Shown here piece after piece: positions 26,397-64,000 of a DNA stretch of 64,000 nucleotides. Source of the DNA: Myxococcota bacterium (lineage in GTDB: Bacteria > Myxococcota > Kuafuiibacteriia > Kuafuiibacteriales > Kuafuiibacteriaceae); NCBI GenBank assembly GCA_050331295.1, contig JBHJGZ010000004.1, forward strand, positions 477,008 through 541,007. Reading direction: 5' to 3'. The notes beneath the pieces were generated by a model. The model had not been told where the DNA came from. It did no database searches and saw only the letters and a list, made by a program, of their open reading frames with translations. The translations under genes were made by a program, and so were the position numbers. Position 1 is the stretch's first letter, and each line of letters starts with the position of its first letter.

Positions 26397-26403
26397 CGTC
26401 CGA

Positions 26404-27018: not shown

Positions 27019-28290
27019 TCAGCCTTGCCGGTGTCCAACGGCCTTGGGCGCTCCCAGCTTTTCCAGAAAGAGGTCCCGCAGCTCACGGATCTCTTTGTCT
27101 CTGCTCTTGAGTCCGCGAAGGCTCGTGATCAACTCCGGATTCGCCCGGACCCGACCTCGATCCTCCAGTTCGAGGAGTTCCTCGATGGCGAGCTTTGTCA
27201 GCTTGTTATCCCCGAGTGTCATCACCTTCATCAACAGGTTCTGATCCGGCGGCAGGCGGAAGCGCTCGGCCAGGGTGTGTGCCGCCTTCAGAGCTCTTTT
27301 TCCACCCTCGATGCGGAGCTCTGTGGTCAATGTGTCTTGCTCACTTATGCGAAGCTGAAACTCGGACTTGTGAATCGGCGGATCCAACGCCGGAGGAGGC
27401 GGAGGGCGATTGCCTTTCGGCTTCCAGTTGGGAGCAATCTTTTGAAAGGCTGCTTCGGCTTCAGCCCGCTGCCGTTCTGCGAAACTCATGGGCTTGTGTT
27501 GGGGTCCTCCTGCTTCGGGGGCACCAGCCGAACGGTCGCGGTCTTTCCCTGCCGCACGCGCCTTCCGTTTGGCGGCTCGTTCGTCCGCCGACATGCGAAT
27601 CACGCCGGCCGCACGCCGAGGTTTGGTGTCCGGTACCGACTCGACAGCAGCGCTCCGAGGGGTACTTCTGGACGTTGACGTGGACTTCTTGGGCTCGGAT
27701 TGAGCCTCGTTGGTTGGTGACTTCACGGGGGACTTGGTCCTCGAAATGGCGGGCGCTTTCCGGCCCGAAGATGTCGCTTTACCGGCGCGGGAAACCCGCT
27801 TGAAGAAGGGCCCGGTCGGCAGGGCGGCGGCGGTCGTCTCCCGCGGAGCCCCCTTCGGAGCCGTTCGAGGGTCCGAAGCGGTCTTGCGGGTTGGACCCGA
27901 CGTCACAGCAACCCTCTTGCGAGGGCTCGCCTTTTTCGCCGCCGCAGCTTTCTTGGCGGTGGAAGGACGAGATCCTCTCTGGGTCTGCGCAGCTGATCGT
28001 CGAGTGCTTACCTTCTTCGAAGCCGCTGACTTCGTCGCTTTTTTTGCTCCGCGTACCGCCTTCTTCTTCGTCGCCTTCTTTCGCGCGACCGAAGTTCCTG
28101 ATGCCGAGCGGCTCGCGCCTTTCGTTGTCGAACGTTTCGGCGTCGCCTTCTTCTTGGTTCGTGAGGCTTTTGTACCGGAACGGCTCCGCGTGCTTTTGGT
28201 GCTCGTCGCCTTCTTTTGGCTGGTTGTCTTGGATGTTCGCTTCGCCGCTTTCTTCTTCTTCTTCTTCTTCGCGACGCGGTCAGTCGTCAT
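27019..28290 (-). CDS. Histone H1-like Lys/Ala-rich protein with C-terminal helical domain (hypothetical DNA-binding protein)
   Basis: The first ~220 aa are AKK/KKA/TKK low-complexity (MTTDRVAKKKKKKKAAKRTSK...AAKKASPRKR). The last ~150 aa form a charged helical domain. 12 nt downstream of purL and upstream of skp on the same strand. The antisense ORFs are Phe-rich junk. Confidence 0.6.
   Translation of the reverse strand: MTTDRVAKKKKKKKAAKRTSKTTSQKKATSTKSTRSRSGTKASRTKKKATPKRSTTKGASRSASGTSVARKKATKKKAVRGAKKATKSAASKKVSTRRSAAQTQRGSRPSTAKKAAAAKKASPRKRVAVTSGPTRKTASDPRTAPKGAPRETTAAALPTGPFFKRVSRAGKATSSGRKAPAISRTKSPVKSPTNEAQSEPKKSTSTSRSTPRSAAVESVPDTKPRRAAGVIRMSADERAAKRKARAAGKDRDRSAGAPEAGGPQHKPMSFAERQRAEAEAAFQKIAPNWKPKGNRPPPPPALDPPIHKSEFQLRISEQDTLTTELRIEGGKRALKAAHTLAERFRLPPDQNLLMKVMTLGDNKLTKLAIEELLELEDRGRVRANPELITSLRGLKSRDKEIRELRDLFLEKLGAPKAVGHRQG
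28249..28269 (-). repeat. (AAG)6-AAA homopurine triplet run encoding K7 at codons 8-14 of the H1-like gene
   Basis: The plus strand shows tttcttcttcttcttcttctt, a perfect 21-nt polypyrimidine/polypurine microsatellite inside coding sequence. Confidence 0.7.
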
Positions 28291-34537: not shown

Positions 34538-34671
34538 GACGCCGCAGCAAAGACACAAGCTGACCGGGTGCGCAAGTCCAGCCCGCACAGTGAACGGCGC
34601 CAGCGCGCTCCTCCGTCATGCAGGAGGGGTTGCGGCTCTCAGTAGACGATGAGTCGAAGGGTGGTCGGGCG

Positions 34672-43205: not shown

Positions 43206-44123
43206 CTAGAGAGCTTTCGGGTCCAGCACCATCCTTCTTACCTTGGCCACATCCAAAGTCGCATCGATCCACCGCACCGTCGGTTCGTGATTGAACCAGT
43301 TGCGCTGACGCTTGGCGAACTGACGCGTCGCTATCGACGTCGCCTCAACCGCTTCTTCCTCCGTCAACCGGCCACGCACCACCTGCACTGCGTCGCGATA
43401 GCCGATGATGCGTAGACCGGGTGCGTCCGACGGCAACCCGGCGCGGAGGAGTGCCTGTGTCTCGTTCACGAGGCCGGCGGCATACATCCTTCGCGTTCGG
43501 ATATGGATCCGTTGCCACAACGCGTTACGTGGCCACGAAAGGGCGTACGCCCGAACCCCATACCGCTGCTCTCTGAAACGATGCGCCCGCTGTCGAACCG
43601 AGATCTGCTCTCCGGTCTGGATGAAGTATTCGATCGCCCTCCCGATCCGCTGCGGGTCGTTCGGGCTGATCCGAACGGCTGCATCTGGGTCCATCGATGC
43701 CAGTACTCGATGAAGTGCCTGCGATCCTTCGCGCTCGAGCCGGTCTCGAACATGTTCCCGTACCTGGGAGGAGATTGCGGGGGCCGCGAAGATCCCGTGG
43801 ATCAAGGCGCGGTACCAAAGTCCTGTCCCGCCACACAGGAAGGGGATCCGTCCACGGCTTCGAATCTCCCGGATCGAGCGATCCGCCTCTTTCTGAAAGG
43901 TAGCAGCGGTCCATTGCAGCGAAGGCTCGACCCGATCCAGCAAATGATGGGGCACACGGGCCTGGTCCTCCGGGGTCGGTTTTGCGGTGCCGATATCCAA
44001 TCCAGTGAACACCTGTGCCGAGTCGCAGCTGACGATCTCCCCATTCAGCTGTTCAGCCAGTGCGAGAGCGAGCTGACTCTTGCCAGACGCGGTGGGGCCC
44101 AAGATCGCCACGAGATCATCCAT
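43206..44123 (-). CDS. miaA: tRNA dimethylallyltransferase
   Basis: ILGPTASGKSQLALALA...IVSCDSAQVFTGLDIGTAKPT is the P-loop IPT signature. Confidence 0.95.
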   Translation of the reverse strand: MDDLVAILGPTASGKSQLALALAEQLNGEIVSCDSAQVFTGLDIGTAKPTPEDQARVPHHLLDRVEPSLQWTAATFQKEADRSIREIRSRGRIPFLCGGTGLWYRALIHGIFAAPAISSQVREHVRDRLEREGSQALHRVLASMDPDAAVRISPNDPQRIGRAIEYFIQTGEQISVRQRAHRFREQRYGVRAYALSWPRNALWQRIHIRTRRMYAAGLVNETQALLRAGLPSDAPGLRIIGYRDAVQVVRGRLTEEEAVEATSIATRQFAKRQRNWFNHEPTVRWIDATLDVAKVRRMVLDPKAL

Positions 44124-45870
44124 GGCTTCGAAAAAGCTGCTGTAGGCCGCTCACTCCGAGGATGAGTACGCAGGGCTGCCCGTCGACGCCGGTTGAAAGA
44201 GCCGACTCTCGCGAAATCATCGCCAAGAGTTCTTGCTGCTGGGCCAGGTCCTGCGGCAACGGGCGTGCACTTCGCCCCGCTACCTTGCGTGCCCACCGAG
44301 TATGTCGCGTGTCGTCGGGCTGGCCGTCGGGGTCGTCCGCGAGATCCCGGAGAAGGTCCCCGGCCTGTGCCGGATTCATGTCTGCCGGCAACGACCGCAC
44401 CGAGAAGGAATGCGTCCCGAAAGGCTCGAGAGCGAGCCCCAGGGCGCGCACGTGTTCCAGTCGGCCCTGGAGGCGGGCCGCCCTCGCGGGGTCGAGCTCT
44501 ACCACCAGTGGAATCAAGAGCGACTGGAGCGAATCAGGCTCGTCGCTCCTCATGGCGTTGAGGAACGCGATCTTTCGGTGTACCGCAGAAACGTCCACCA
44601 CCATCAGCGCATCCGTCGTCTGAGCCAGAAGGTATCGATTGAAAAGAAGACCGAGCGCGTTCGCCTCCCGAAGACTTTCCTTTGGCGTGGCGGGCTCGAA
44701 CGCGGGAAGAGATGGCTGGTCTGAGCTTAGGGACGGCGCTCCCGACCACGCCCGAGGCCGGAACATCAAGGGCCGACTCCCATCGGAAGGAGGGTCTGGG
44801 GAGACGGACGGCGGCGCCGGTTCAGACACCAACGCTCGAGCCATTTCGGCAGACGAAGTACTTCTCACCAACGACTGTTCCAGAGTTCGAGCCAGGGCGC
44901 CTACGACGGCCCGATGCACTTCCTGAGGCCTCTCAAAGCGGATCTCGGTCTTCTGGGGATGGACATTGACATCGAATCGTCCAGGGTCTTCGCTCAGATA
45001 GAGCACCGCGGCGGGAAAGCGGCCCCGCTCGAGAAACGTTCGATAGGCCTCCTGGATCCCATGTTGGATCGTTCGGTCGCGAATGAATCGCCCATTGAGA
45101 AAGACATAAAGGGACCGGCTGGTGCGCTCATGAACACCTGGCTCGGAAATCCACCCCTCCACGCCGAGTCGATGGGGACGCGTGTCGGGACTGATGGGCA
45201 TGAGCCGCTCCGCCAACGCCCGGCCCAGGATACGCGCAATGCGCCCTCGGGGGTCGTCCGCCACGGCGGGCGGAACGTCGAGAACCGTCCGGCCTGCTGC
45301 ACACAGGTGGAATAGGACCTCTGGTCTCGCGAGCGCCGATCGCGTCACCATCTCGACAACATGGGCCACCTCGGTCGCGGGCTTCTTGAGGAACTTGAGC
45401 CGGGCGGGAACATTGAAGAACAGGTCTTGCACCCTGACGACGGTTCCCACCGGTGCACCGACCTCCTCGACGCTCTCGATGCTCCCGGCGGTCACGACCA
45501 CGCGGGTCCCGCACGGCGCGGAGCGTGGCCGGCTGACGAGCTCCATCCGGCTCACGGATGCGATGGAAGGGAGCGCCTCGCCACGGAACCCGAGGCTCCT
45601 GACCCGCTCCAGGTCTTGCGCGGTTCGGATCTTGCTGGTCGCGTGACGCTCTAGGCACCGAACGACATCTTCGGGGTCCATACCGGTTCCGTCGTCCGAA
45701 ACCTGAATCAGGCTCCGGCCCCCTCCCTCGACGGTGACGGATACGTGGGTCGCCTCCGCATCGAGGGCGTTTTCCACCAACTCTTTCACCACGGAAGCGG
45801 GTCGCTCGACCACTTCTCCAGCAGCGATTTGATTGCTGACGTCTTCGGCGAGTCGGTGGATGCGAGGCAA
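44116..45870 (-). CDS. mutL: DNA mismatch repair protein MutL
   Basis: IHRLAEDVSNQIAAGEVVERPASVVKELVENALDA...DDGTGM is the GHKL ATPase N-terminus. C-terminal dimerisation domain. 8-nt overlap with miaA, preserving the mutL-miaA order seen in enterics. Confidence 0.95.
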   Translation of the reverse strand: MPRIHRLAEDVSNQIAAGEVVERPASVVKELVENALDAEATHVSVTVEGGGRSLIQVSDDGTGMDPEDVVRCLERHATSKIRTAQDLERVRSLGFRGEALPSIASVSRMELVSRPRSAPCGTRVVVTAGSIESVEEVGAPVGTVVRVQDLFFNVPARLKFLKKPATEVAHVVEMVTRSALARPEVLFHLCAAGRTVLDVPPAVADDPRGRIARILGRALAERLMPISPDTRPHRLGVEGWISEPGVHERTSRSLYVFLNGRFIRDRTIQHGIQEAYRTFLERGRFPAAVLYLSEDPGRFDVNVHPQKTEIRFERPQEVHRAVVGALARTLEQSLVRSTSSAEMARALVSEPAPPSVSPDPPSDGSRPLMFRPRAWSGAPSLSSDQPSLPAFEPATPKESLREANALGLLFNRYLLAQTTDALMVVDVSAVHRKIAFLNAMRSDEPDSLQSLLIPLVVELDPARAARLQGRLEHVRALGLALEPFGTHSFSVRSLPADMNPAQAGDLLRDLADDPDGQPDDTRHTRWARKVAGRSARPLPQDLAQQQELLAMISRESALSTGVDGQPCVLILGVSGLQQLFRSHG

Positions 45871-46561: not shown

Positions 46562-47290
46562 TTACCGACCCCCGAACTGGGCTGCCACATCGGCTTCCAC
46601 CGACTCCGCTCTGGCTGCCAGCTCCTGGGTGCGCGGCTCGGCGGCATCCGCGACCACCTCTGCAACCCGGGCCCCCATCCGAAGCGCTGCGGACACCGCC
46701 TCCAGAATCACTTCATCGGATCTCTTGGGGTCGAGCCGCGCCCGCCGAAGACCAGCAACGATCTTCGCGTCGACATGCTCTCGGTTTTCGGGGTGGACAA
46801 ACTCCGCCACCACCACCGCACTGGTCAGAACGCCACAATACTTCCGCATGCCTGAACGAGGTCGTAGGGTACGCAACGTTCGGTGCGCCAGACGACCCGC
46901 TTGGACGTGGCGCTCCACCACGCCCTCAGTCACCGGGTTGTCGGACAGGCCCTGGAGAGCGGCGACCCATCGATTCACCGCCATCGCGGTGACAAACGCA
47001 AACCTTCCGGAGGGACGAACGATAGACTGCAGGGTCGCGGAATGCGCAAGCTCGGCTGCGGCCCGGGCTTGGGCGACCCATAGCTGTCTTCTCGGCGGAT
47101 GTTCGTCGCGCTGGGTTGGAAAGGCGCTGTCCATCGCCTGCTGTGTGAGCTCGCGAGCTCTCGACTGCAGCCGGTCCCGGATCAGCCACAGACGCGACTC
47201 GACGTGGACCAGCCGGGTCGAACTGGTCCGCAGCCGCTCAATGTCGAACCGAAGTCGGAGACGGACCTCGGCCGGCGTCAATCGACTCAT
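46562..47290 (-). CDS. Hypothetical protein (helical, no recognised family)
   Basis: 243 aa from MSRLTP. The coding strand was chosen because the antisense ORF is Ser/Arg-rich junk. Confidence 0.4.
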   Translation of the reverse strand: MSRLTPAEVRLRLRFDIERLRTSSTRLVHVESRLWLIRDRLQSRARELTQQAMDSAFPTQRDEHPPRRQLWVAQARAAAELAHSATLQSIVRPSGRFAFVTAMAVNRWVAALQGLSDNPVTEGVVERHVQAGRLAHRTLRTLRPRSGMRKYCGVLTSAVVVAEFVHPENREHVDAKIVAGLRRARLDPKRSDEVILEAVSAALRMGARVAEVVADAAEPRTQELAARAESVEADVAAQFGGR

Positions 47291-47624
47291 TCCGACCACG
47301 ATGAAGCAACTGCCTCGGTTCGGCAAGACAGCCCCCCCAGGTTTGCCATTCCTTTACGGCATGGTTGGGCCAGTCCCGGTCCCCGTGGACTGATGGCGGC
47401 AAGGCGTGTTGTCCGTGTATCGACCGTCCACCATGGCTTCTGCTACATCGCGTGGGTGCGTTCCTGGGATCCACTGGCGCCTCGACGTTCTCCGCGACTC
47501 AAAGCGGTCTTTCGTGCCGTCGCTTTCGCCTCGATGGCCGTGGTTCTGTTCGTCTTGGCTCTGGCAGTCTCGGTCATCGTCACGACCCGTGCCCTGCCCT
47601 GAGGCTTTGGATCGTCGGCCGGTC

Positions 47625-47927
47625 TCAGGTCTCGGGCTTGAGCGCGTCGACGATCTTGGCCTTGGTCGCTTCAGCCCGTTCGTCTTCCTCCGCCTCGGAC
47701 CTCAGTCTCTCGAGTCGACCGGATTTCTCCAGAGCACGGAGTTCGATGGCACGGAGCTTCTCGATGAGCTCTGGGTGCTCCGTGCCCTTTTGCGAGAGCG
47801 GAAGTTCGGCTGGATATCGGAAGCCATGAAGCATTCGGATCACGCGTTCCTCCTCGGGATCGAGGGGACTAGCGGAGGTCGCGGTGGTCGTCTGAGCTCC
47901 TGCACGCTTCCGCCGCGAATCCGTCAT
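47625..47927 (-). CDS. Small acidic helical protein (hypothetical)
   Basis: 100 aa, a basic N-terminus followed by helical EERVIRMLHGF...HPELIEKLRAIELRALEKSGRLERLRSEAEEDE. Same strand as the genes on both sides. Confidence 0.4.
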   Translation of the reverse strand: MTDSRRKRAGAQTTTATSASPLDPEEERVIRMLHGFRYPAELPLSQKGTEHPELIEKLRAIELRALEKSGRLERLRSEAEEDERAEATKAKIVDALKPET

Positions 47928-47978
47928 GTTGGCGAGACGCTAACGGAGCGGATCTAGAGGGTCAAATTTATGACTGGC

Positions 47979-54145: not shown

Positions 54146-56476
54146 ATGGACCCCAACACCTCCGAGGTTCTTCTGAGCGAAGAGGCCCAGCGCCTCTACA
54201 TGAATTACGCCCTCAGCGTCATTACCAGCCGAGCGATCCCGGATGTCCGAGATGGGCTCAAGCCGGTCCAGCGCCGGATTCTGTACGCCATGCAGAGTGA
54301 GCTCCGAGTCCTTCCGGATGCGAAACCCGCCAAGTGCGCCCGCATCGTGGGTGATGTCATCGGTAAGTATCATCCTCACGGGGAGAGCGCCGTGTACGAC
54401 GCGCTGGTCAGGATGACCCAAGACTGGGTCATGCGGGCTCCTCTCGTCACGGGCCAGGGGAACTTCGGCAATGTTGACGGCGATCCTCCGGCCGCCTACC
54501 GCTACACGGAAGCCAAGCTCGCTCCCATCACCATGGAGCTCCTTGCGGAGCTCGACAAGAAGACCGTTGCCTTCCGTCCAACCTTCGATAACGAGCGTTC
54601 CGAGCCGACGGTTCTCCCGGCTCGATTCCCGAATCTCTTGGTGAATGGCTCCCAGGGCATCGCCGTCGGCATGGCGACCAGCGTTCCTCCACACAATCTC
54701 GGTGAGGTCCTCGACGCTTGCGTTGCTCTGATTCAGGACCGAGAACTGTCGAACGCTCAGCTCCTCAAATTCGTGAAGGGTCCCGATTTTCCCACCGGCG
54801 GCGAACTGATCACCGACCGCAGGGCGTTGCGTCAAGTCTATGAGGCCGGAAACGGAACCCTCGCCGTGCGTGCAACCTACACCGTAGAAAGAGAGCGAAA
54901 TCAGGAGCGGATCGTCATTACTTCGGTCCCGTACGGTGTCCTGAAATCAGCGCTTCAAACCAAGATCGCAGACGTCATCATCGGCAAGAAGCTGCCCGGA
55001 CTCTTCGATGTTCGGGACGAGTCGACAGAGGAAATCCGACTGGTTTTGGAACTCAAGAAAGGGACGAGTCCGGAACTGGTCATGGCATATCTCTATAAAC
55101 ATACGCCGCTTCAGACCAATGTATCCGTCAATCTCACTTGCCTCGTCCCCTCCGAGAATCCGCAAGTCCCAACCCCGAAGCGGCTGGACCTTCGGTCCAT
55201 GCTCCTCGAGTTCCTGGCCTTTCGAGCCGAAGTCGTCCAGAACCGTCTCCGCTACGACCACGACCGAGTTCGCGCACGAATCCATATTCTGGAGGGCCTC
55301 GAGCGGGTCTTTGATGCCCTCGACGAAATCCTGGCTCTCATCCGAAAGAGCGACGGTAAGGCGGACGCAGCGAAGAAGCTAATGAAACGGTTCGACCTGG
55401 ATGAAGAGCAGACCGAGGCCATTCTTGGCCTTCGTTTGTACCAATTGGCCCGCCTCGAAATCCTGGTCATCCGGGAAGAACTGGAAGAAAAACGCAAGGA
55501 AGAGACGAAGCTGGCCGCACTTCTGAAGAGCCCGGCGAAGCGCTGGAGTCTCATTGCGAAGGAGATGACGGACCTCAGGTCCCATTACGCCGACCGGCGC
55601 AGAACCAAGATCGTAGGTGGGGCCAAGGATCCCGAATTCTCGGAAACGGACTTCATCGTCGACGAAGACTCCATGGTAATCGTGAGCGCTCGGGGTTGGG
55701 TCAAGCGTCAACAAACAGTCCGTGACCTGGCCGCAACGCGGGTCAAGGAGGGTGACCGGGTCATGTCTTGCCTGGCCGGTTCGACCCGAGCCTCGGCGGC
55801 GTTCTTCACAAATCTCGCCCATTGCTACGTTACTCGAATCGCCGACGTTCCGGCTTCCACCGGGTACGGCGACCCCGTTCAACGGCTGTTCAAGCTGAAC
55901 GACGGAGAAGTCGTGGTTGCAGCTGCTTCATTCGACCCTCGGTGGATCCAATTCCCAGAGGAAGAGGAAGTTTACGAAGATGGAACACCAGCTCCTCCGT
56001 ACGGCGTGGCTGTTACAAAGAAAGGTCTGGCGTTCCGGTTCCCTCTTTGGCCCCACCAGGAACCGTCGACGCGCAGTGGGCGCAAGTTCGGTCGGCTCAA
56101 AGAAGATGATCGGGTTCTCGCGGTCTTTGTTCAGAAGGACGAAGAAGATGGGTTCATCGTTGCGGCCGCCGATGACGGACACGCCATAGCAGTGGATCTG
56201 GAAGAGATTCCCGTGCTGGCCGGCCCGGGTCGCGGCAGCCAACTGATAAAGCTGGACTCCGATGCAAGCCTCATTGCAGCGCTTATCTCGCCAACGGATC
56301 AGGAAGCCCCACTCGAAGTGCGAACCACGAAGGGCAAGAAGGTGCAGCTTTGGGCCTCTGAACTCCGGGCCTCTAGAGCGAGCCGCGGAAGATTGGTCGT
56401 GAAAACGACTGGTTTCGCCGAGGTCGAATGGCCTCTTCCCCAAATTCCGATCCTGGCCGAAGAGGATGAGGATTGA
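54146..56476 (+). CDS. parC: Type IIA DNA topoisomerase subunit A (ParC/GyrA-like; likely topoisomerase IV)
   Basis: [30 protein letters not shown], catalytic region [18 protein letters not shown] and [22 protein letters not shown]. 776 aa, no GyrA-box (QRRGGKG) seen, and it precedes the B subunit. Confidence 0.9.
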
Positions 56477-58395
56477 ACATGGCCCGCACCAAGCAGAAGG
56501 CCGCATACGACGCGGAAGACATCCAGGTCTTGGAGGGGCTTCAGCCGGTTCGCATGCGCCCCGGCATGTACATCGGCGGTACCGACAGTCACGGATATCA
56601 TCACCTTCTACGGGAGATCCTCGACAACTCCATAGACGAGGTCATCAATGGCCACGCTTCCACCATCACCGTGGAACTGGACGATGACCGCAAGGGGGTC
56701 AGTATCGAAGACGATGGTCGCGGCATTCCTGTTGCAACCATGCGTAAGCTCGGCAAGCCCGCGGTCGAAGTCATCTTGACCACACTCCATGCCGGCGGAA
56801 AGTTTGGAGGCTCCGGTTATGACGTCTCGGGCGGCCTACACGGCGTCGGTTCCTCAGTCGTCAACGCCCTCTCCGAGGAACTCACCGTCGAGATCTGGCG
56901 AGATGGAGGACACTTTCAGCAGACTTTCGCCCAGGGCCTGCCCACCTCGAAGCTGGTCCGACGAGGAACGTCCAAGGAAACGGGGACGTGGATTCATTTT
57001 CGCCCAGACCCGGAGATCTTTGGGGAGAGCGGTCGGTTCGATCCGCGTCGAGTCAAAGAGCTGCTCGAGAGCAAGGCCTTCCTCAATCCTTCCGCCAGCC
57101 TACGCTTCGTGGACCCCGCTTCCGGAGAGGACGAGACATATCACCATCCCGGCGGCCTGAGAGACTTCTTGCCCACCGTACTGCAGGAGGGCGGCCGACA
57201 ATCTGCACAGCCGGAGCCATTCGTGCTCGAAAAGGACGACTATCCACGAACGCAAGCCATATTGACATGGACCGATGGAACCTCCGAGCAGATCCTGAGC
57301 TTCGCGAACGGTGTTCGGACCTCGGACGGCGGCTCGCATGAAACCGGCTTCAAGTCAGCCGTGGTAAGAGCAGTTCGGGCGTACATGACCGCGAAAAAGC
57401 GGTCCCCGAAAGGCCTCACCATCACGGTTGAGGACATTCGCGAAGGGTTGGTGGCCATCCTATCGACGTACGTGCGCGAGCCACAGTTCCAAGGCCAAAC
57501 CAAGGGTCGCCTCAATAACCCCGAAGTAGCCGCTCTGATCGAGAACATGCTGCGACCACCGCTGGAGCAATGGATGCTCGACAACGGAACGGTCGCTGAC
57601 GGGATCGTGGACCGCATCGAGCTAGCGGCCAAGGCACGTGAAGCGTCGCGGGTTGCTGCCCAGCAAGTACAACGGAAGAGCGCAGTCAGCCATCGGTTGA
57701 ATTTGCCGGGCAAGCTGGCCGACTGCTCCAGTACCGACCCCAAGCGATCCGAGCTCTTCATCGTGGAGGGCGAATCTGCAGGGGGCACCGCCAAGATGGC
57801 CAGGAACCGCGAGACGCAGGCGGTCCTGCCCCTCCGGGGCAAGGTGCTCAATACGATGCAGGCCTCATTGTCTAAGGTTTTGGATAACAAAGAGCTCGGC
57901 AATATCGTGTCCGCGCTGGGATGCGGGATCGGTCCGAAGCTGGACCTCTCCAAGTTGCGCTATGACCGAGTGTTTCTGCTCATGGATGCCGACTCGGACG
58001 GGGCCCACATCGCCACGCTTCTGCTGACTTTTTTCGTTCGGCACATGACCGAGTTGGTCCGCGAGGGGCACATCTTCCTTGCCCAACCTCCCCTGTATCG
58101 GCTCGATGCCGCCAAGGAAACCCACTGGGCCCTGGACGACCAGGAACGAGACGCATTGCTCGAGAAACTGCCCAAGAACGTCCGCGTGGGCCGGTTCAAG
58201 GGTTTGGGCGAAATGGATGCCCGCGACCTGAAGGCGACCACCCTCGACCCTACGCGCAGACGCATTGTCCAAGTCGTTCTGGATGACGCGACTTCCGGAA
58301 CGATGGAGGCGCTGATGGGCAAGGACCCCGCTCCCCGCTTCCGCTTCATCATGGACCGAGCAGCCACGGCGGACTCTTCGGAGCTGGACGTCTGA
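56473..58395 (+). CDS. parE: Type IIA DNA topoisomerase subunit B (ParE/GyrB-like)
   Basis: GHKL ATPase [51 protein letters not shown] and PLRGKVLN. Short 640-aa form. 4-nt overlap with subunit A. Confidence 0.9.
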
Positions 58396-58543
58396 GACCA
58401 AGGGGGCTGCTTGCCTACATTGATGTGCGGTACGACAACCGCAAGGACACCGGTTTGGGCCGCATTCTTGACAGCGTTTCCGGCCGGCACCATCATCCTC
58501 ACATCAGGTGATGCGCGGAGCACACCCGATTCACTGAGGAATC

Positions 58544-58738
58544 ATGGCCAATACCGACAAGAGGAAGCAGTCACTCTATTTTCCCGAAGAAATGCTCAAA
58601 GAGATCCAGGACGAGGCGAACCGGCAGGACCGGTCCCTTTCTTGGATTGTGCAACAAGCCTGGCGGATCGCAAGAACCGAAATCATGCGGTTTCCGTCCG
58701 TCAACGACGTGCTGGAGTCGGGTAAGAATGACGGCTGA
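58544..58738 (+). CDS. Ribbon-helix-helix (CopG/Arc-like) small protein, paralog 1
   Basis: 64 aa. KQSLYFPEEMLKEIQDEANRQDRSLSWIVQQAWRIA reads as beta-strand, helix, helix. Confidence 0.55.
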   Translation: MANTDKRKQSLYFPEEMLKEIQDEANRQDRSLSWIVQQAWRIARTEIMRFPSVNDVLESGKNDG

Positions 58739-58744
58739 GCGTCA

Positions 58745-58945
58745 ATGAGCGGCGGCGTCAAACAGAGCCTGTATTTTCCCGAGGACATGCTGGCGGAGAT
58801 CCAGCGGGAGGCCCAGAGGCTTGACCGTTCGGTTTCGTGGATCGTCCAGCAAGCCTGGAAAATTGGTCGAGAAGACCTACGAAGAGTTCCTTCGGCAAAC
58901 GACGTGATTCCAGACCGTAAGCCTCCGGGTGACTCGTCCAAATAG
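58745..58945 (+). CDS. Ribbon-helix-helix (CopG/Arc-like) small protein, paralog 2
   Basis: 66 aa. KQSLYFPEDMLAEIQREAQRLDRSVSWIVQQAWKIG. About 70% identical to paralog 1 and 6 nt downstream of it. Confidence 0.55.
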   Translation: MSGGVKQSLYFPEDMLAEIQREAQRLDRSVSWIVQQAWKIGREDLRRVPSANDVIPDRKPPGDSSK

Positions 58946-58956
58946 TCGACGCTGGT

Positions 58957-59790
58957 CTATTTAAGCGAAATTTGGCCGTTCTGCTGGACCGGTAGACTCA
59001 AGTCCGATACCCTCACTACTCCGTCCATTCGGAATCTCAAGACGCCCTTGGTCAACTTTTCCTTCCATCCCCGGCCATAGCTCTGCTCATCGACCGACGT
59101 CACCACCTCGAACTCCTGCACCGCCCCCGGAATGAGACGAACGGCTCTTCCGACGGTACCTTCGGACACCCCTCTTCCGTCCAGCTCGATGGCGTATTCC
59201 ACGGCATCCACCACGACACCGAACGGGTTCTCATTGACCAGACGAAGGTAGAAGGTGACGTCGATCCCTTGCGACTCATAGGTCGCTGCTTGGCTATCGA
59301 AGACCATGAAACGCGGCAGATTCGGGGGGACCAACGAACTGCGCCGTTCGAAGCTCGATTCCGTGCCGTCCCTCAAGCGAATCTTGCCCCGGAGAACCGC
59401 AGGAATCGAGTCCGCCTTCAAGAGTTCGAGATACGAGTCCACGTCCGCGCGGATCGGATAATTTAGACGTTCGTCGAACTCCACGTTGACCGTCTCGCCG
59501 GCCAGAATGGGCCCGACCTGGTTCAGGTGACCACCACGTCTCAGCTGGAGGGGGCCCGCCGACAACAAAACCGCGTAGTCGATGTCCTCGACCGTGACCG
59601 GCACCGTCCTTGGATTGAGGATGGCAAGCTCCACAGCGATGCGCGTGGTCTGCAGATCCAGATTCGTCGGGAGCATCCGTTTGACCGTGACCACGACCGG
59701 GGGCTGGGGTGAACGCGAAGCATTCAATGCGCACGACGCAATCGATGAGGCCAATAACGCCAAGAGTGGAGCGAATGGCCAGGTAGCCAT
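58957..59790 (-). CDS. LEA type 2 / WHy-domain (NDR1/HIN1-like) lipoprotein
   Basis: Signal peptide MATWPFAPLLALLASSIASCAL (lipobox). Two repeats of the LEA14-like beta-sandwich (VTVEDIDYAVLLSAGPL... and VVDAVEYAIELDGRGV...). The track start 59925 adds an Arg/Pro-rich leader. Confidence 0.55.
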   Translation of the reverse strand: MATWPFAPLLALLASSIASCALNASRSPQPPVVVTVKRMLPTNLDLQTTRIAVELAILNPRTVPVTVEDIDYAVLLSAGPLQLRRGGHLNQVGPILAGETVNVEFDERLNYPIRADVDSYLELLKADSIPAVLRGKIRLRDGTESSFERRSSLVPPNLPRFMVFDSQAATYESQGIDVTFYLRLVNENPFGVVVDAVEYAIELDGRGVSEGTVGRAVRLIPGAVQEFEVVTSVDEQSYGRGWKEKLTKGVLRFRMDGVVRVSDLSLPVQQNGQISLK

Positions 59791-60009
59791 GTTCCGAAGG
59801 GACACATTGGGCCCCCAGGGGGCAGCCGGGCGACTTGCGCGAGCTGTTCCAGGCCCGCGAACCGGTCCGTCGCTGGCCGTGAACGGGTCGGGCATCCGGG
59901 TCCGAGGCGTCCGAGGCCCGTCCACGCAACCAGCCTAGCCAGCGGATCCGAACGAGTAAATGGGCGACCTTGACCCCTCGTCGTCCGCTCACTAAGCACG
60001 ACCCGACCC

Positions 60010-60843
60010 ATGAACGACGACGATCGGGACCGGGTACGGCGCCAGATCGAAAGCGACCAGTACAATGCCCGTGGCATCGAGGCTGCCGACCGCAAGTGGT
60101 TGGACGAAGCCATCAGAGCGTTCAAACGTGCCATCGAGCTCGACCCAGAATCTGCGCACGCCCATGACAATCTCGCGACGGTCTACGGCGAGAAAGGCAT
60201 GTTCATCGATGCGCTGCGAATGTACCTGGAGGCGCTTCGTTTGGAACCGGACTCGGCCACGGCGCACTACAATCTGGCCTGCTTTCTTTCCAGCCAGGCC
60301 CATCAGATGGCAGTGGAGCAGTATCGTGAGGCGATTCGACTCGAATACGACTACCCGGACGCACACGTGAATCTGGGCCTTTGCCACGTAGATGCCGGCG
60401 AGCACGAAAAGGCGATCGAGGAGTTCCGCATCGCTTGCGAACTCGATCCCGCCGACATGGGGGCAAGACAGGAACTCGCAGCTTCCCTGATCGACATCGC
60501 CGACTACGCTGAGGCCATTCGCCATCTGAAGGAGGTCCTCCGGGCGGAGCCGGACAACGTCGACGCGTCCATCGATCTGGGCATCGCCTACTCCGCTCAA
60601 GGCTTTTATGAGGAGGCGGAGCGTGCTTTTCGAGCTGCCCGAGACCAGGAGCCCGAAGAAGCTATCGCTGCGTATTACTTGGCTGCGCTATATGGACAGT
60701 GGAACCGACTGGATGACGCCCTCGAGCACTTGGATCGGGCCATGAGTCTCGATCCTGAACGCGTACGGCAGTGGGCTCGCTCGGACCGCATGTTCGACCC
60801 GATCCGGGAGGAAAAGGGTTTCCTCCAGATGCTGGACGTCTAA
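60010..60843 (+). CDS. Tetratricopeptide (TPR) repeat protein
   Basis: Seven or more 34-aa repeats with the W/L-G-Y-A-F-A-P pattern (AHDNLATVYGEKGMFIDALRMYLEALRLEPDSATAHYNLA...). Confidence 0.75.
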   Translation: MNDDDRDRVRRQIESDQYNARGIEAADRKWLDEAIRAFKRAIELDPESAHAHDNLATVYGEKGMFIDALRMYLEALRLEPDSATAHYNLACFLSSQAHQMAVEQYREAIRLEYDYPDAHVNLGLCHVDAGEHEKAIEEFRIACELDPADMGARQELAASLIDIADYAEAIRHLKEVLRAEPDNVDASIDLGIAYSAQGFYEEAERAFRAARDQEPEEAIAAYYLAALYGQWNRLDDALEHLDRAMSLDPERVRQWARSDRMFDPIREEKGFLQMLDV

Positions 60844-61032
60844 CCAGTAATCGCTTCCCTCACGTCGAGGATGTCTGGTCAGAACACACACATGGAGCGA
60901 CCCTCTGGCGCCGACGGAGGTCGCTGCGTCATCGAGCCGTCAAACGACCATACCCACATGTAGCGTGCAGATTTGGGGCCTCATCAATGGGTTGCGTTCG
61001 AGGTTCGCCCGGCGTACATCCGACACCAAGGC

Positions 61033-64000
61033 ATGAAGATCCGACGCCTCGAAATCCAGGGCTTCAAGAGCTTCGCCGATCGGACAGTGCTGAAGTTCGG
61101 CGACGGCATTACCGGCGTCGTCGGTCCGAACGGCTGCGGCAAGTCCAACATCGTCGACGCGATACGCTGGGTGATGGGTGAACAGTCGGCGAAGCACCTT
61201 CGGGGGGCCGGCATGCAAGACGTCATCTTTGCCGGGTCGGATTCCCGGGGCCCCATGGGCATGGCGGAAGTCACCATCAGCTTCGCCAACGACGGTCTGT
61301 TCGTTCCAGCGGAATACCAGAAGTTCGATGAGATATCGGTGACGCGACGGCTCTTTCGCGACGGCTCGTCGGAGTATGCCATCAATCGCGTTCCGAGTCG
61401 GCTCCGTGACATTCTGGACCTCTTTCTGGGAACGGGCATCGGCAAGAACGCCTATTCCATCATCGAACAGGGTCGCATCGGTCTCATCGTCACGGCAAAG
61501 CCCGAGGACCGTCGGGCGTTGATCGAAGATGCGGCGGGGGTCAGTCGATACAAAGCCCGCAGAAAGCAGGCCGAGCGTCGAATTGAGGCCACCGAGCAGA
61601 ACCTGTTGCGCGTGACCGACATGACGGACGCGCTCCGGGCGCGACTCGAGACCCTGGAGGCGCAAGCAGACAAGGCTCGGGCGTACACCCAGCTCAAGGA
61701 GGAGCTGCGAGGTCTGGAGCTCCACGCGGGCGTGCTGCGGCTGCTCGAGATCCAATCCCTCGAGAGATACCATCGGGGTGAAGCGAATCGGCTCGCGGTC
61801 GCGATCAGCGAGCGGGAACAGCAGGTCGCGGCGGAAGAGCAACGAACCCTGCAACTGGAAAAAATCGTCGAAGAACGTAGAAACGCGCTCCGTGGGCAGG
61901 AACACCAATTGCTTTCAACTCGTCAGTCCAAAGCGCTGACCGAGAACAACATGGCGGCATTCTGCCGAGAGCAGACTCAGCTCGAGGCGAGACGGACGGA
62001 AGCGGAGTCCGAGCTGACCAGCTTGCGTGCCGAGCGGGAACAGCTCCGCGCGGAGGCTTTCGAGGCTGAGCAGCGGGCCGAAGCTTTGGAAGCCGACCAG
62101 CGCGATGCTGATGGCCTGGTCAGCCTGCAAAACGAACTGGCCCAAGCCGAAGAATCCCTCGAATCGGCCCGGACGCGTTTGGAATCACAGCGAGAGGAGC
62201 TCTTCAAGCTCAGCGCACGAGCCACGGAAGCCCGGGCCGAAGCGGCTTCGGTCGCCCAACGGCGATCCGAAGTCGACGCACGCCTCGACAAGCTCCATGG
62301 AGCACGGAAAGCATCGATCGAGCGCGCCCGAACCGCCTCGCAGAAACTGTCTCATCTCGAAAGTCAGCTGAGTGAGCGGCAGCAACTTCGACTGGCGCTC
62401 GAGACGCGGCGAACGGACCATGCCGAAGTACTCGAGCGGATGACCCAGGAGCTCGCAGCCTTTGACCAACGCGTTCAGGAACACCAGACCGAGCTCGCCG
62501 ACCGCCGGGCTCATCTCCAGTCCCTTCAGGAGATTCAACGTTCCTACGAGGGATTCGACGACGCGGTGCGCACTCTCATGCGGCGCAAGAGCGAGCAGGA
62601 CCGATTGGGGGCGTCGCTTCATGGGCTGGTCGCCGACGTCGTGTCCGCTGAACCGCAATACGAGACAGCGGTCGAAGCGGTCCTCGGCGATCGACTTCAA
62701 TACGTGATCGTGGACAGCCTCAATGAAGGTGTCGAGTCGGTCCAATATCTTCGGTCCCTCGGTGAAGGACGATCGACGTTCGTTCCCCTGGACCTGCGTG
62801 AAGACCATGCAAGCTGGGCGCCACGTCGTCGATGGTTTCGTTCGAGCCATCCTCCGTGGACCGAAGATGGTGACATGCCTCTCTCCGAGTTGCCCCGCCC
62901 CGCATCATCCTCGCCTGGGTTTCAATCGGATGCCGGACCTGCCATTCCAGCGCCTTCCTCACTCCGATCTTCTGGCGACGAGAGCTTTCATGCGCCGATC
63001 TTGGACCACGAAGCCTACCCAGGAACGCTGTTGCCGGCCACCGGCCCGGTCCAAGACGTGGACCCTGACCAAGTCGCAGGAGTAGGCGAACCGCGAGCGC
63101 TATCGGCGACCCAGCCTCCGCCTCCGCCCCACCCCGAGGAGGACCTGCCGATACCCGATTCAGCAGACTCTTTCGTTTGGGTGGAAGCCGAAGACGATCA
63201 CTGGCCAGACCTCTCTCATCCTTCGGTCGTCGGAAAGATGGTGGACCTCGTCCGCGCCCAGCCCGGCTATGAGCACGTCGCGCGGGTCCTCTTGGGTGAC
63301 GTGGTGGTGGTGCAGGATCTCGACGTCGCGCGTCGCATTTGGAGCAACAACGGCCACCGCAAGACCCTCGTGACCCTGGCCGGAGAAGTGTTGGACCCCG
63401 TAGGCCTTTTGACCGGGGGCGCTGCGCAAGCCAAGACGACCGGGGTTTTGGGTCGCAAGCGGACCATCCTCGAGCTTCAAGAAGAGGTGGCGCGCTTGAA
63501 TCAGAGCCACGGAGAGACTCGGGCCCGGAGGGACCAACTGAAGGCGAAAGTCAAAGGCCTCGAGACCGAGCTGGCCGACCTGTCCCGTGAGCGCCACCAG
63601 GAGGAGCTTTCGCTCCTGAATCTCGAACAGGAGGCTTCTCTGCTTCGGTCGGAAGTGGATCGAGAGGCAGCGGAACAGCGCGCGCTGCTCGAGGACATCG
63701 AAACGATGGAGGGACGGGCGGCAGAGCTCCAGGCAACCCAGGCTTCCTTGGTCTCTCCCGATGTCTTCGAGGAAGAACACAAGAGTCTGGATGCGTCGGT
63801 TCAAGTTTCCGCTCAGTCGGTTCAGGACCTCGTCGACCGTCATCGAACGCTCCAAGAGGCCGTCACGGAGCTCCGAATTACCGTAGCCGCAAATCGCGAA
63901 AGGCGAGTGGCCTCTCGGAGGTCGCTCGAACGCCTCCGCGATCGGCTCACGGATGGCGACGTTCGGGAAGAGAAGCTTCTGGAGTCACTGGACCGCATCG
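61033..64000 (+). CDS. smc: Chromosome segregation protein SMC, 3' end beyond window
   Basis: MKIRRLEIQGFKSFADRTVLKFGDGITGVVGPNGCGKSNIVDAIRWVMGEQSAKHLRG (Walker A head), long coiled coil and a hinge (ETAVEAVLGDRLQYVIVDS...GRSTFVPLD; ...LLGDVVVVQDLDVARRI...LVTLAGEVLDPVGLLTGG). The frame stays open to 64000. Confidence 0.9.
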   Translation, partial: MKIRRLEIQGFKSFADRTVLKFGDGITGVVGPNGCGKSNIVDAIRWVMGEQSAKHLRGAGMQDVIFAGSDSRGPMGMAEVTISFANDGLFVPAEYQKFDEISVTRRLFRDGSSEYAINRVPSRLRDILDLFLGTGIGKNAYSIIEQGRIGLIVTAKPEDRRALIEDAAGVSRYKARRKQAERRIEATEQNLLRVTDMTDALRARLETLEAQADKARAYTQLKEELRGLELHAGVLRLLEIQSLERYHRGEANRLAVAISEREQQVAAEEQRTLQLEKIVEERRNALRGQEHQLLSTRQSKALTENNMAAFCREQTQLEARRTEAESELTSLRAEREQLRAEAFEAEQRAEALEADQRDADGLVSLQNELAQAEESLESARTRLESQREELFKLSARATEARAEAASVAQRRSEVDARLDKLHGARKASIERARTASQKLSHLESQLSERQQLRLALETRRTDHAEVLERMTQELAAFDQRVQEHQTELADRRAHLQSLQEIQRSYEGFDDAVRTLMRRKSEQDRLGASLHGLVADVVSAEPQYETAVEAVLGDRLQYVIVDSLNEGVESVQYLRSLGEGRSTFVPLDLREDHASWAPRRRWFRSSHPPWTEDGDMPLSELPRPASSSPGFQSDAGPAIPAPSSLRSSGDESFHAPILDHEAYPGTLLPATGPVQDVDPDQVAGVGEPRALSATQPPPPPHPEEDLPIPDSADSFVWVEAEDDHWPDLSHPSVVGKMVDLVRAQPGYEHVARVLLGDVVVVQDLDVARRIWSNNGHRKTLVTLAGEVLDPVGLLTGGAAQAKTTGVLGRKRTILELQEEVARLNQSHGETRARRDQLKAKVKGLETELADLSRERHQEELSLLNLEQEASLLRSEVDREAAEQRALLEDIETMEGRAAELQATQASLVSPDVFEEEHKSLDASVQVSAQSVQDLVDRHRTLQEAVTELRITVAANRERRVASRRSLERLRDRLTDGDVREEKLLESLDRI

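What the first reader, a model, noticed from the sequence alone, without database searches (positions are those of the whole stretch)
58544..58945. Tandem pair of paralogous ribbon-helix-helix mini-proteins with no toxin or enzyme partner
Two 64/66-aa ORFs 6 nt apart share about 70% identity and a clear RHH signature (KQSLYFPE[ED]ML.EIQ.EA.R.DRS.SWIVQQAW). RHH proteins are usually antitoxins or repressors paired with a cognate gene, but here the neighbours are parE upstream and a convergent LEA-2 lipoprotein. A TTGACA-17nt-CATCAT sigma70-like promoter candidate lies about 60 nt upstream within 58396..58543. A duplicated orphan RHH could be an autoregulatory pair or a heterodimeric DNA-binding switch.
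Basis: partly seen in the sequence, partly recalled or inferred. Interest (0 to 1): 0.55.

Follow-up and report, generated by a model that had tools for sequence, protein, structure and literature searches.

The report
cdbA–cdbB nucleoid-protein operon of Myxococcota
The two tiny tandem genes are the myxobacterial cdbA–cdbB pair, already characterised in Myxococcus xanthus as ribbon-helix-helix proteins that coat and bend the chromosome and bind the signal molecule c-di-GMP, so the finding is real but already explained.

Summary
ORFs 58544..58738 (64 aa) and 58745..58945 (66 aa) lie 6 nt apart and share 37 of 57 residues (E 8e-27). A TTGACA-17-CATCAT promoter-like site lies upstream.

They are not orphans of unknown function. 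Both score above the curated cutoff of NCBIfam TIGR04563. ORF A matches the crystal-structure sequence of Myxococcus xanthus CdbA (PDB 6sbw/6sbx) at E 1.7e-27, with 46 of 61 residues identical. ORF B matches it at E 7.5e-20.

Skotnicka et al. 2020 (PMC7156744) describe the same arrangement: two small RHH paralogs, cdbA then cdbB, in one operon. Both proteins bind c-di-GMP. CdbA is an essential tetrameric nucleoid-associated protein that bends DNA. CdbB is dispensable and interacts with CdbA.

[quoted passage not shown] ORF B carries the signature of second-position copies across the phylum: F50 at the tetramer centre is replaced by an aliphatic residue.

None of 89 related loci has a toxin neighbour.

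The only additions here are a lineage-specific gene order (parC-parE-cdbAB-LEA_2-TPR-smc) and that interface signature. Novelty: already known. Interest: low.

The parts
58468..58496 (+). Candidate sigma-70-type promoter of the operon (TTGACA, 17-nt spacer, CATCAT)
   Evidence: Pattern scan: 10 of 12 positions match, 1 site found against 0.3 expected. The -35 block TTCTTGACA and a CAT[CG]AT-like -10 are conserved in 8 of 10 loci of the same clade, within an otherwise diverged intergenic region. Promoter activity itself is inferred, not shown.
58536..58540 (+). Shine-Dalgarno-like GAGGA, 3 nt before the cdbA start codon
   Evidence: Read directly from the sequence. The spacing is short, so this is inferred.
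58544..58738 (+). cdbA ortholog: 64-aa RHH protein, CdbA-type
   Evidence: TIGR04563 scores 124.1 bits against a cutoff of 65. phmmer against PDB 6sbw/6sbx CdbA gives E 1.7e-27. 46 of 61 residues are identical, and all listed functional residues are conserved except K41R and A52S. F50, diagnostic of the A type, is present.
58745..58945 (+). cdbB-type paralog: 66-aa RHH protein
   Evidence: TIGR04563 scores 96.9 bits against a cutoff of 65. The match to CdbA 6sbw is E 7.5e-20, 35/54 identical. In the AF2 model the core has pLDDT 89-95, and the top Foldseek hits are 6sbx/6sbw. It carries the second-copy signature L47, R48, aliphatic 50 and falls in the NJ clade of second copies.
54146..58395 (+). 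Context, not part of the operon: type IIA topoisomerase A subunit (54146..56476, ParC-like) and B subunit (56473..58395, ParE/GyrB-like)
   Evidence: Pfam and NCBIfam hits. This gene order upstream of cdbA recurs in the window's clade: L001-L005 and L009-L013.
58957..59925 (-). Context: convergent LEA_2-domain gene. The true start is probably the ATG at 59790, giving 277 aa with signal peptide and lipobox I-A-S-C
   Evidence: Pfam LEA_2 E 8e-12. Homologs are 273-277 aa. The N-terminal sequence was read. The lipoprotein status is inferred from the motif.
60010..64000 (+). Context: TPR protein (60010..60843) and SMC (start about 61033, runs off the window end)
   Evidence: Pfam TPR hits. The SMC N-terminus MKIRRLEIQGFKSF... 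is followed by a long open frame. SMC_N and SMC_hinge are annotated in the syntenic loci.

Best explanation
The two ORFs are the cdbA-cdbB operon of a Myxococcota bacterium.

Shown here by sequence:
- Both proteins belong to the CdbA/CdbB (TIGR04563) family of stand-alone RHH proteins.
- ORF A is the CdbA-type copy.
- ORF B is the CdbB-type copy.

Inferred from the M. xanthus experiments on the orthologs:
- Each chain pairs into an RHH dimer whose two-stranded beta-sheet (K8, S10, Y12) reads the DNA major groove.
- Two dimers join through the C-terminal tail (F50, V53 into the W34/I42/I47 pocket) into a tetramer whose sheets sit about 35 Å apart. Binding to a GC-rich direct repeat therefore bends DNA.
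- The abundant protein occupies hundreds of chromosomal sites and helps organise and segregate the nucleoid.
- c-di-GMP binds the same beta-strand and helix1-helix2 loop surface (K8/S10, R27/R30) and so competes with DNA.
- The B copy is accessory. It also binds c-di-GMP, hetero-oligomerises with A and can partly substitute for it.

The pair is probably transcribed from the conserved TTGACA-17-CATCAT promoter. With a 6-nt gap and no strong ribosome-binding site for B, translation of B is probably coupled to that of A.
For: Family and ortholog identity:
- TIGR04563 scores are 124.1 and 96.9 bits against a cutoff of 65.
- Matches to the CdbA crystal-structure sequence are E 1.7e-27 for A and 7.5e-20 for B.
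- K8, S10, Y12, R27, D29, R30, S31, W34, Q38, I42, R44, N54, D55 and V56 are identical in A and B.
- The predicted structure of B matches 6sbx/6sbw best, then PutA, Arc and CopG.

Arrangement and distribution:
- The A-then-B tandem order recurs in at least 31 of 89 loci, including Corallococcus, Cystobacter, Archangium and Hyalangium. Single copies are always A-type. This matches PMC7156744.
- Named homologs are all Myxococcota, Myxococcales or 'Deltaproteobacteria'.
- The -35 block of the promoter is conserved in the clade.

Mechanism comes from PMC7156744 and PMC10313047.
Against: No biochemistry exists for this organism's proteins. c-di-GMP binding, tetramerisation, nucleoid association and essentiality are all extrapolated from an ortholog with 75% identity (82% over residues 1-56).

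ORF B has small residues at the tetramer core (F50V, V53A, I47L, A43G), lacks K6, and is 20 residues shorter than the 86-aa M. xanthus CdbB. Its oligomeric behaviour may therefore differ.

The monophyly of B-type copies has only moderate bootstrap support, 45%.

The CdbA DNA motif is given only in a figure of the paper, so its occurrence in the window could not be tested.
Confidence: 0.9

Rival explanations
1. The pair is a remnant of a type II toxin-antitoxin module: RHH antitoxins whose toxin gene has been lost.
For: RHH domains are common in antitoxins. There is a very weak NCBIfam hit to the BrnA antitoxin, E 0.013-0.015 and about 15 bits against a cutoff of 60. Antitoxin RHH domains appear among distant structural matches at E above 0.3.
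Against: No toxin-family gene is adjacent in any of 89 loci. The neighbours are ftsH/folP/glmM, an ASH/HYDIN Ig-like protein, LEA_2, a 1029-aa family not run through Pfam (the Corallococcus example has a signal-peptide-like N-terminus), 5'-nucleotidase, MOSC, a large membrane protein not run through Pfam, and a 50-aa ORF family with no Pfam match. The family is extremely conserved across the phylum, with A-type copies 85-100% identical. That is unlike mobile toxin-antitoxin genes. The ortholog is an essential chromosomal protein.
Confidence: 0.02
2. The pair acts mainly as a classical sequence-specific repressor of the Arc/CopG/MetJ type. It would autoregulate its own promoter or control the adjacent parCE, LEA_2 or smc genes, rather than act as a nucleoid-associated protein.
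For: It has the RHH fold. The spacer between -35 and -10 is conserved in the clade, which could hide an operator. The linkage to parCE and smc is conserved in this lineage. In M. xanthus about 35% of all CdbA ChIP peaks, and 47% of the top 100, are intergenic. One peak lies upstream of cdbS.
Against: No direct or inverted repeat typical of an RHH operator lies in 58380..58560. The only repeat is a 10-nt inverted pair with arms 66 nt apart. In M. xanthus, CdbA depletion changes transcription only modestly. Its DNA affinity is 0.4-4 µM against 10-200 nM for RHH repressors, and cells hold about 7000 monomers. The parCE/smc linkage is absent in most other lineages.
Confidence: 0.07
3. ORF B is not an ortholog of M. 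xanthus CdbB. It would be an independent, lineage-specific duplicate of cdbA that converged on similar substitutions or is simply redundant.
For: Distances are ambiguous. Corallococcus CdbB is 80% identical to window A and 78% to window B. Bootstrap support for one B clade is only 45%. At least one locus, L015, has a clearly recent A-like second copy that keeps F50. B-type tail lengths differ: 66 aa here, 86 aa in M. xanthus.
Against: Shared derived states occur in distant lineages: aliphatic residue 50 in 30/31 second copies, R/K48 in 30/31, L47 in 25/31. A-type copies have F/Y50 in 89/89. In the full-data NJ tree, 24 of 25 unique second copies form one clade with no A-type sequence. Window B is closer to Corallococcus CdbB (78%) than to its own A (70%) or to Corallococcus CdbA (66%).
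Confidence: 0.15

Closest known systems
CdbA (MXAN_4361) of Myxococcus xanthus; PDB 6sbw/6sbx; Skotnicka et al. 2020, PMC7156744
   Same: ORF A has 46 of 61 residues identical. It has the same length class (64 aa against 67 aa) and the same RHH core and C-terminal tetramerisation tail. K8, S10, Y12, R27, D29, R30, S31, N54, F50, V53, W34, I42 and I47 are all identical. It is the first gene of a two-gene operon and occurs in Myxococcota only.
   Different: The host is an uncultured Myxococcota lineage whose window has 61% GC, against 69% for M. xanthus. There are minor substitutions (K41R, A52S and the far C-terminal tail). The genomic neighbourhood differs: parC-parE upstream and LEA_2/TPR/smc downstream, instead of the divergent ftsH-folP-glmM block seen in Myxococcaceae and Anaeromyxobacter loci. 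No experimental data exist for this protein.
CdbB (MXAN_4362) of Myxococcus xanthus
   Same: ORF B is the second gene of the pair and belongs to the RHH family TIGR04563. The c-di-GMP/DNA-interface residues are kept. It shares the second-copy signature (L47, R48, aliphatic 50) with the Myxococcaceae second copies, and its core is 78% identical to the Corallococcus CdbB ortholog.
   Different: It is 66 aa rather than 86 aa, with a short tail. Orthology has only moderate support. The M. xanthus CdbB sequence itself was not available to the tools, so the syntenic Corallococcus second copy was used as a proxy.
Arc / CopG / MetJ-type RHH repressors and RHH antitoxins (ParD, CopA, BrnA)
   Same: They share the ribbon-helix-helix fold and the principle of a dimer of dimers on DNA repeats.
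   Different: There is no partner toxin and no extra ligand domain. In this family the RHH domain itself binds c-di-GMP. DNA affinity is low and binding is genome-wide rather than at one operator. Sequence similarity is only at superfamily level (Pfam RHH_1 17-21 bits).
Other bacterial nucleoid-associated proteins (Fis, H-NS, GapR, HU)
   Same: The functional analogy was drawn by the authors: small, abundant proteins with moderate sequence specificity that bend DNA and whose loss gives chromosome-segregation phenotypes.
   Different: The fold is unrelated. The binding sites are GC-rich rather than AT-rich. Activity is modulated by a ligand, c-di-GMP.

Membership tests
CdbA/CdbB family (NCBIfam TIGR04563) | Scores above the curated family cutoff of the TIGR04563 HMM | tested here: met
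   A scores 124.1 bits and B 96.9 bits against a cutoff of 65.
CdbA/CdbB family (NCBIfam TIGR04563) | Close sequence relationship to the experimentally characterised CdbA | tested here: met
   phmmer against PDB 6sbw_A CdbA gives E 1.7e-27 for A and 7.5e-20 for B. Identities are 46/61 and 35/54.
CdbA/CdbB family (NCBIfam TIGR04563) | Stand-alone ribbon-helix-helix fold (strand, helix 1, helix 2, C-terminal tail) | tested here: met
   The AF2 monomer model of B has an extended N-terminus and helices 13-26 and 30-47, with core pLDDT 89-95. The best Foldseek hits are 6sbx and 6sbw, then PutA, Arc and CopG. For A this rests on homology to the crystal structure.
CdbA/CdbB family (NCBIfam TIGR04563) | [quoted passage not shown] | tested here: met
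   All are identical in A and B. Only pocket residue K6 is G in B. The definition of these residues comes from PMC7156744.
CdbA/CdbB family (NCBIfam TIGR04563) | Tetramer interface (F50 and V53 into W34/I42/I47; V56 with P14/M17; Q38/K41) | tested here: inconclusive
   A keeps all of these except the conservative K41R. B has F50V, V53A, I47L and A43G. This is the pattern of second copies across the phylum. Whether B forms homotetramers or only mixed oligomers cannot be judged from sequence.
CdbA/CdbB family (NCBIfam TIGR04563) | Two-gene operon in the order cdbA then cdbB; a lone copy is CdbA-like | tested here: met
   The gap is 6 nt on the same strand with no terminator between. The A-then-B order holds in 31 tandem loci, and the 53 single copies all have F/Y50. 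Co-transcription itself was not tested.
CdbA/CdbB family (NCBIfam TIGR04563) | Restricted to Myxococcales/Myxococcota | tested here: met
   All named sources are Myxococcota, Myxococcales or 'Deltaproteobacteria'. The exception is one 5-kb contig binned as Fredinandcohnia. It carries two downstream gene families (9, 12) that also lie downstream of cdbA in Anaeromyxobacter-type loci, so it is probably mis-binned. The exact B protein is labelled 'Myxococcota bacterium' (P0121).
CdbA/CdbB family (NCBIfam TIGR04563) | [quoted passage not shown] | not testable with these tools
   Known only for the M. xanthus proteins.
Type II toxin-antitoxin RHH antitoxins (ParD, CopA, BrnA and similar) | Adjacent cognate toxin gene | tested here: not met
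   No toxin-family neighbour occurs in the window or in 89 related loci.
Type II toxin-antitoxin RHH antitoxins (ParD, CopA, BrnA and similar) | Match to an antitoxin family model above its cutoff | tested here: not met
   BrnA_antitoxin_add scores 15.4 and 15.7 bits against a cutoff of 60.
Arc/CopG/MetJ-type operator-specific RHH repressors | Repeated operator half-sites at the regulated (own) promoter | tested here: not met
   The upstream 181 nt hold no direct repeats and only one 10-nt inverted pair with arms 66 nt apart. The published CdbA motif could not be retrieved as text, so a CdbA-type site cannot be excluded.

The most novel reading that the evidence does not exclude
In this uncultured Myxococcota lineage, cdbAB sits between the topoisomerase IV-like genes (parC-parE) and smc. 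That order persists in loci whose SMC proteins are only 43-57% identical to the window's. The linkage might reflect a functional module in which the c-di-GMP-responsive CdbA/B proteins cooperate with topo IV and SMC in chromosome segregation. In the same reading, the conserved remodelling of the tetramer core in CdbB-type copies (F50 to V/I/M, V53 to P/A) would make B an obligate hetero-oligomer partner that tunes the sheet-to-sheet spacing, DNA bending or c-di-GMP sensitivity of CdbA.
Probability: 0.12. Interest if true: 0.45.

Novelty: already known. Interest (0 to 1): 0.14.

Why it matters
The result matters mostly as a correction. The 'orphan RHH pair' is an ortholog of a characterised system that links c-di-GMP signalling to chromosome organisation. 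Public annotation still labels these genes 'TIGR04563 family protein' or 'uncharacterized small protein', which is why the pair looks mysterious from sequence alone.

Two modest additions came out of the check. First, the family is far larger and more conserved than the 2020 survey of complete genomes could show: 5609 clustered proteins, with A-type copies 85-100% identical. Second, CdbB-type copies share a phylum-wide signature at the tetramer core. That gives a concrete, testable handle on why CdbB cannot replace CdbA.

Tried and rejected
- **Toxin-antitoxin remnant:** rejected after mapping neighbours in 89 loci and annotating the recurrent neighbour families.
- **Classical repressor with an operator:** the repeat search upstream found nothing convincing. 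The published CdbA motif exists only as a figure, so no motif scan was possible.
- **Regulatory RNA in the window's leader:** Rfam found nothing in the whole window at gathering thresholds. The sRNA-like element seen upstream of cdbA in other lineages is absent from the window.
- **Terminator after the operon:** none was found. The only hit is a weak hairpin inside cdbA, consistent with chance (1 found against 0.8 expected).
- **General conservation of the parCE-cdbAB-smc synteny:** it is not general. It is confined to the window's clade. Anaeromyxobacter, Myxococcaceae and Archangiaceae loci have ftsH-folP-glmM upstream, and Nannocystis has other neighbours.
- **Identity of the 'putative lipoprotein' pulled down with CdbA-FLAG in M. 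xanthus:** it could not be retrieved from the text or the held supplements, so a link to the adjacent LEA_2 lipoprotein is untested.
- **Literature search for 'TIGR04563':** no papers.
- **Technical dead ends:** a crude GC3-based gene caller missed parC and was replaced by conservation-based clustering. A Biopython NJ bootstrap timed out and was redone with a numpy NJ.

Full report
**Observation.** The window holds two same-strand ORFs: 58544..58738 (64 aa) and 58745..58945 (66 aa). Six nucleotides separate them. BLASTP of one against the other gives 37/57 identical residues, E 8e-27, and 70% identity over the 50-residue core. Both contain KQSLYFPE[ED]ML.EIQ.EA.R.DRS.SWIVQQAW. Pfam sees only weak RHH_1/RHH_5 similarity. 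A TTGACA-17-CATCAT site lies at 58468..58496, one site found against 0.3 expected from shuffles. Upstream are a ParC-like A subunit (54146..56476) and a ParE/GyrB-like B subunit (56473..58395) of a type IIA topoisomerase. Downstream is a convergent LEA_2-domain gene.

**Identity.** NCBIfam places both proteins in TIGR04563 well above the curated cutoff: 124.1 and 96.9 bits against 65. A database search with ORF A returned 5609 proteins. Many are 90-100% identical, and where named they are 'TIGR04563 family protein' from Myxococcota, Myxococcales or 'Deltaproteobacteria'. ORF B returned 1813, including an exact match labelled Myxococcota bacterium. Against the PDB, ORF A matches chain 6sbw_A, 'CdbA', at E 1.7e-27, and ORF B matches it at E 7.5e-20.

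**What is known about CdbA and CdbB.** Skotnicka et al. 2020 (PMC7156744) describe the system in Myxococcus xanthus:
- CdbA (MXAN_4361, 67 aa) and CdbB (MXAN_4362, 86 aa) are small RHH paralogs encoded in one operon.
- Both bind c-di-GMP.
- CdbA is an essential tetrameric nucleoid-associated protein. It binds more than 500 chromosomal sites through a GC-rich direct repeat and bends DNA.
- c-di-GMP competes with DNA for the beta-strand and helix1-helix2 loop surface.
- CdbB is dispensable, partly substitutes for CdbA, and interacts with it in a two-hybrid assay.
- Every complete Myxococcales genome has at least one copy. A lone copy is CdbA-like, and none was found outside the order.

Seidel et al. 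2023 (PMC10313047) add two points. CdbA-FLAG pulls down CdbB. A CdbB Q22R substitution suppresses the essentiality of CdbA.

**Residue-level test.** I aligned both window proteins to CdbA. ORF A keeps every residue the paper assigns a role except K41R and A52S. ORF B keeps the mutagenesis-defined binding residues K8, S10, R27 and R30 and the pocket residues Y12, D29, S31 and N54. It differs at the dimer-dimer interface (F50V, V53A, I47L, A43G) and at K6G. An AlphaFold2 model of B, built on a 36-sequence alignment, has an extended N-terminus and two helices with core pLDDT 89-95. Its best structural matches are the CdbA crystal forms, followed by PutA, Arc and CopG.

**Is ORF B a CdbB?** I fetched 80 loci from species-representative genomes and 8 from metagenome contigs, then extracted 125 family members.
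- Among the 89 loci (window included), 31 show a tight A-then-B tandem by my pattern. Three more appear by tblastn.
- About 50 loci have a single copy.
- Five have a more diverged third type about 2 kb upstream.
- First or single copies have F or Y at position 50 in 89 of 89 cases.
- Second copies have I, M or V at position 50 in 30 of 31, R/K48 in 30 of 31 and L47 in 25 of 31.

A neighbour-joining tree on the 50 core columns puts 24 of 25 unique second copies in one clade with no A-type sequence. Bootstrap support is moderate at 45%. Window B is 78% identical to the Corallococcus second copy, used as the Myxococcaceae CdbB proxy. It is 70% identical to its own A. The most parsimonious reading is one ancient duplication followed by losses, for example in Anaeromyxobacter and Nannocystis, so ORF B is a CdbB-type copy. 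I keep an independent-duplication rival at about 0.15. One locus, L015, clearly has a recent A-like duplicate.

**Toxin question and neighbourhood.** Conservation-based clustering of all ORFs in the loci, with Pfam annotation of the recurrent families, finds no toxin partner anywhere.
- In Anaeromyxobacter, Myxococcaceae and Archangiaceae, cdbA is divergent from a conserved block. By reading the representative sequences, I take this block to be ftsH-folP-glmM-pdxJ.
- In several lineages an ASH/HYDIN Ig-like gene lies upstream.
- In the window's own clade (L001-L014, L021) the order is parC-parE-(0-3 genes)-cdbA(-cdbB)-LEA_2(convergent)-(lipoprotein-like gene)-TPR-smc.
- The window shows the compact version. 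SMC starts near 61033 and runs off the end.
- In these loci ParC is 53-70%, ParE 67-76% and SMC 43-57% identical to the window proteins. The order has therefore survived considerable divergence.

That fits CdbA's role in chromosome organisation, but it may simply be a conserved housekeeping block. The rest of the window is ordinary chromosome: a two-component system, a Ser/Thr kinase, aroC, purL/purQ-like genes, a type IA topoisomerase, ribosomal protein S1, aroA, accA, miaA, mutL and sdhCAB.

**Expression signals.** In an alignment of the cdbA upstream regions from ten loci of the clade, TTCTTGACA and a CAT[CG]AT-like hexamer 17 nt downstream are conserved in eight. The surrounding sequence is diverged. 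No operator-like repeats were found upstream. The published motif is not available as text. No Rfam family hits the window. No convincing terminator follows cdbB; its stop is 11 nt from the stop of the convergent LEA_2 gene.

**Mechanism.**
- Shown here: family membership, ortholog-level similarity, conserved binding residues, the tandem arrangement and the conserved promoter block.
- Inferred from the M. xanthus work: RHH dimers pair into a tetramer through the C-terminal tail. The two beta-sheets contact a direct repeat and bend DNA. The abundant protein shapes the nucleoid. c-di-GMP occupies the DNA-binding surface and releases or retunes binding. B joins A in mixed oligomers.
- My own inference: the systematically smaller residues at the tetramer core of B-type copies point to a weakened or altered B-B interface and to function mainly in mixed oligomers.

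**Verdict.** Novelty: already known. Interest: low (0.14). The residual novel reading has a probability of about 0.12. It comprises a functional topo IV-CdbAB-SMC module in this lineage and CdbB as an obligate hetero-oligomer tuner.

Noticed in passing
L017:7665-7741 (+); also L056 ~7700-7780, L085 ~7700-7790, L079 ~7725-7810 and about 26 more loci; absent from the window: A candidate small RNA of about 75-80 nt lies on the cdbA strand, 100-260 nt upstream of cdbA, in 30 loci of Anaeromyxobacteraceae, Myxococcaceae and Archangiaceae. It has a 12-bp hairpin with a C-rich loop (UCCCCCCCCUCCC). Forty nucleotides are identical across families. A terminator hairpin plus U-run follows, with compensatory changes (8 pairs changed on both sides). 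A TTGAC-type promoter lies about 35 nt upstream. No Rfam family matches at gathering score; the only hit is weak, to alphaproteobacterial ar14 (E 0.12). It could be an anti-Shine-Dalgarno-type sRNA or a leader/attenuator of cdbA.
   Followed up: partly
window 54146..64000; L001-L014, L021: The gene order parC-parE-cdbA(-cdbB)-LEA_2(convergent)-TPR-smc is conserved in the window's clade, although SMC identity to the window is only 43-57%. Other Myxococcota lineages place cdbAB next to ftsH-folP-glmM instead.
   Followed up: partly
L018:2067, L022:6022, L063:5639, L082:6029(-), L083:5901: A third, more diverged paralog type is 56-64% identical to window A, with D29E, S31P, Y50 and L56. It is encoded about 2 kb upstream of cdbA, usually across an ASH/HYDIN Ig-like gene. 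The pocket residues differ, so c-di-GMP binding may differ too.
   Followed up: no
L056:12352-12840 (-) and L056:12851-13123 (-); the same families occur in 13 and 10 Anaeromyxobacter-type loci: [quoted passage not shown] This is of note because a PilZ protein (CdbS) is genetically linked to CdbA function in M. xanthus. Orthology to CdbS was not tested.
   Followed up: no
window 58957..59925 (-): The 322-aa ORF of the LEA_2 gene is probably over-extended. An internal ATG at 59790 gives a 277-aa protein, MATWPFAPLLALLASSIASC..., with a signal peptide and a lipobox-like IASC. This matches the 273-277-aa homologs. A 'putative lipoprotein' of unstated identity co-purified with CdbA-FLAG in M. xanthus.
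   Followed up: partly
L060 (DATGOH010000257.1, 4959 bp): This contig carries an 88%-identical cdbA. Its two downstream gene families (9, 12) also lie downstream of cdbA in Anaeromyxobacter-type loci. It is labelled as a Fredinandcohnia sp. (Bacillota) MAG, which is almost certainly a binning error rather than occurrence outside Myxococcota.
   Followed up: no
L015:47 and L015:267: In this locus the second tandem copy is A-like (F50 retained, 90% identical to window A). This is an apparently recent, independent duplication, distinct from the CdbB type.
   Followed up: no
P0055, P0076, P0096 (102-107 aa): These database entries carry a CdbA-type sequence that runs on into a second, degenerate KQSL.FP...-like copy. 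They may be fused or read-through gene models of a tandem pair.
   Followed up: no
window 31670..34588 (-), 44116..45870 (-): The window also encodes a 971-aa type IA topoisomerase with C-terminal Toprim_Crpt repeats, and MutL. DNA-topology and maintenance genes are therefore frequent in this 64-kb stretch.
   Followed up: no
window 22580..24244 (+), 25185..26543 (-), 27019..28290 (-), 46629..47393 (+), 47406..47957 (+): Five ORFs of 183-554 aa have no Pfam match at E <= 1e-5.
   Followed up: no
whole family: There is an annotation lag. IMG and NCBI sources still name these proteins 'uncharacterized small protein (TIGR04563 family)' or 'TIGR04563 family protein', and no searchable paper mentions TIGR04563. 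Yet the family is the experimentally characterised CdbA/CdbB.
   Followed up: yes
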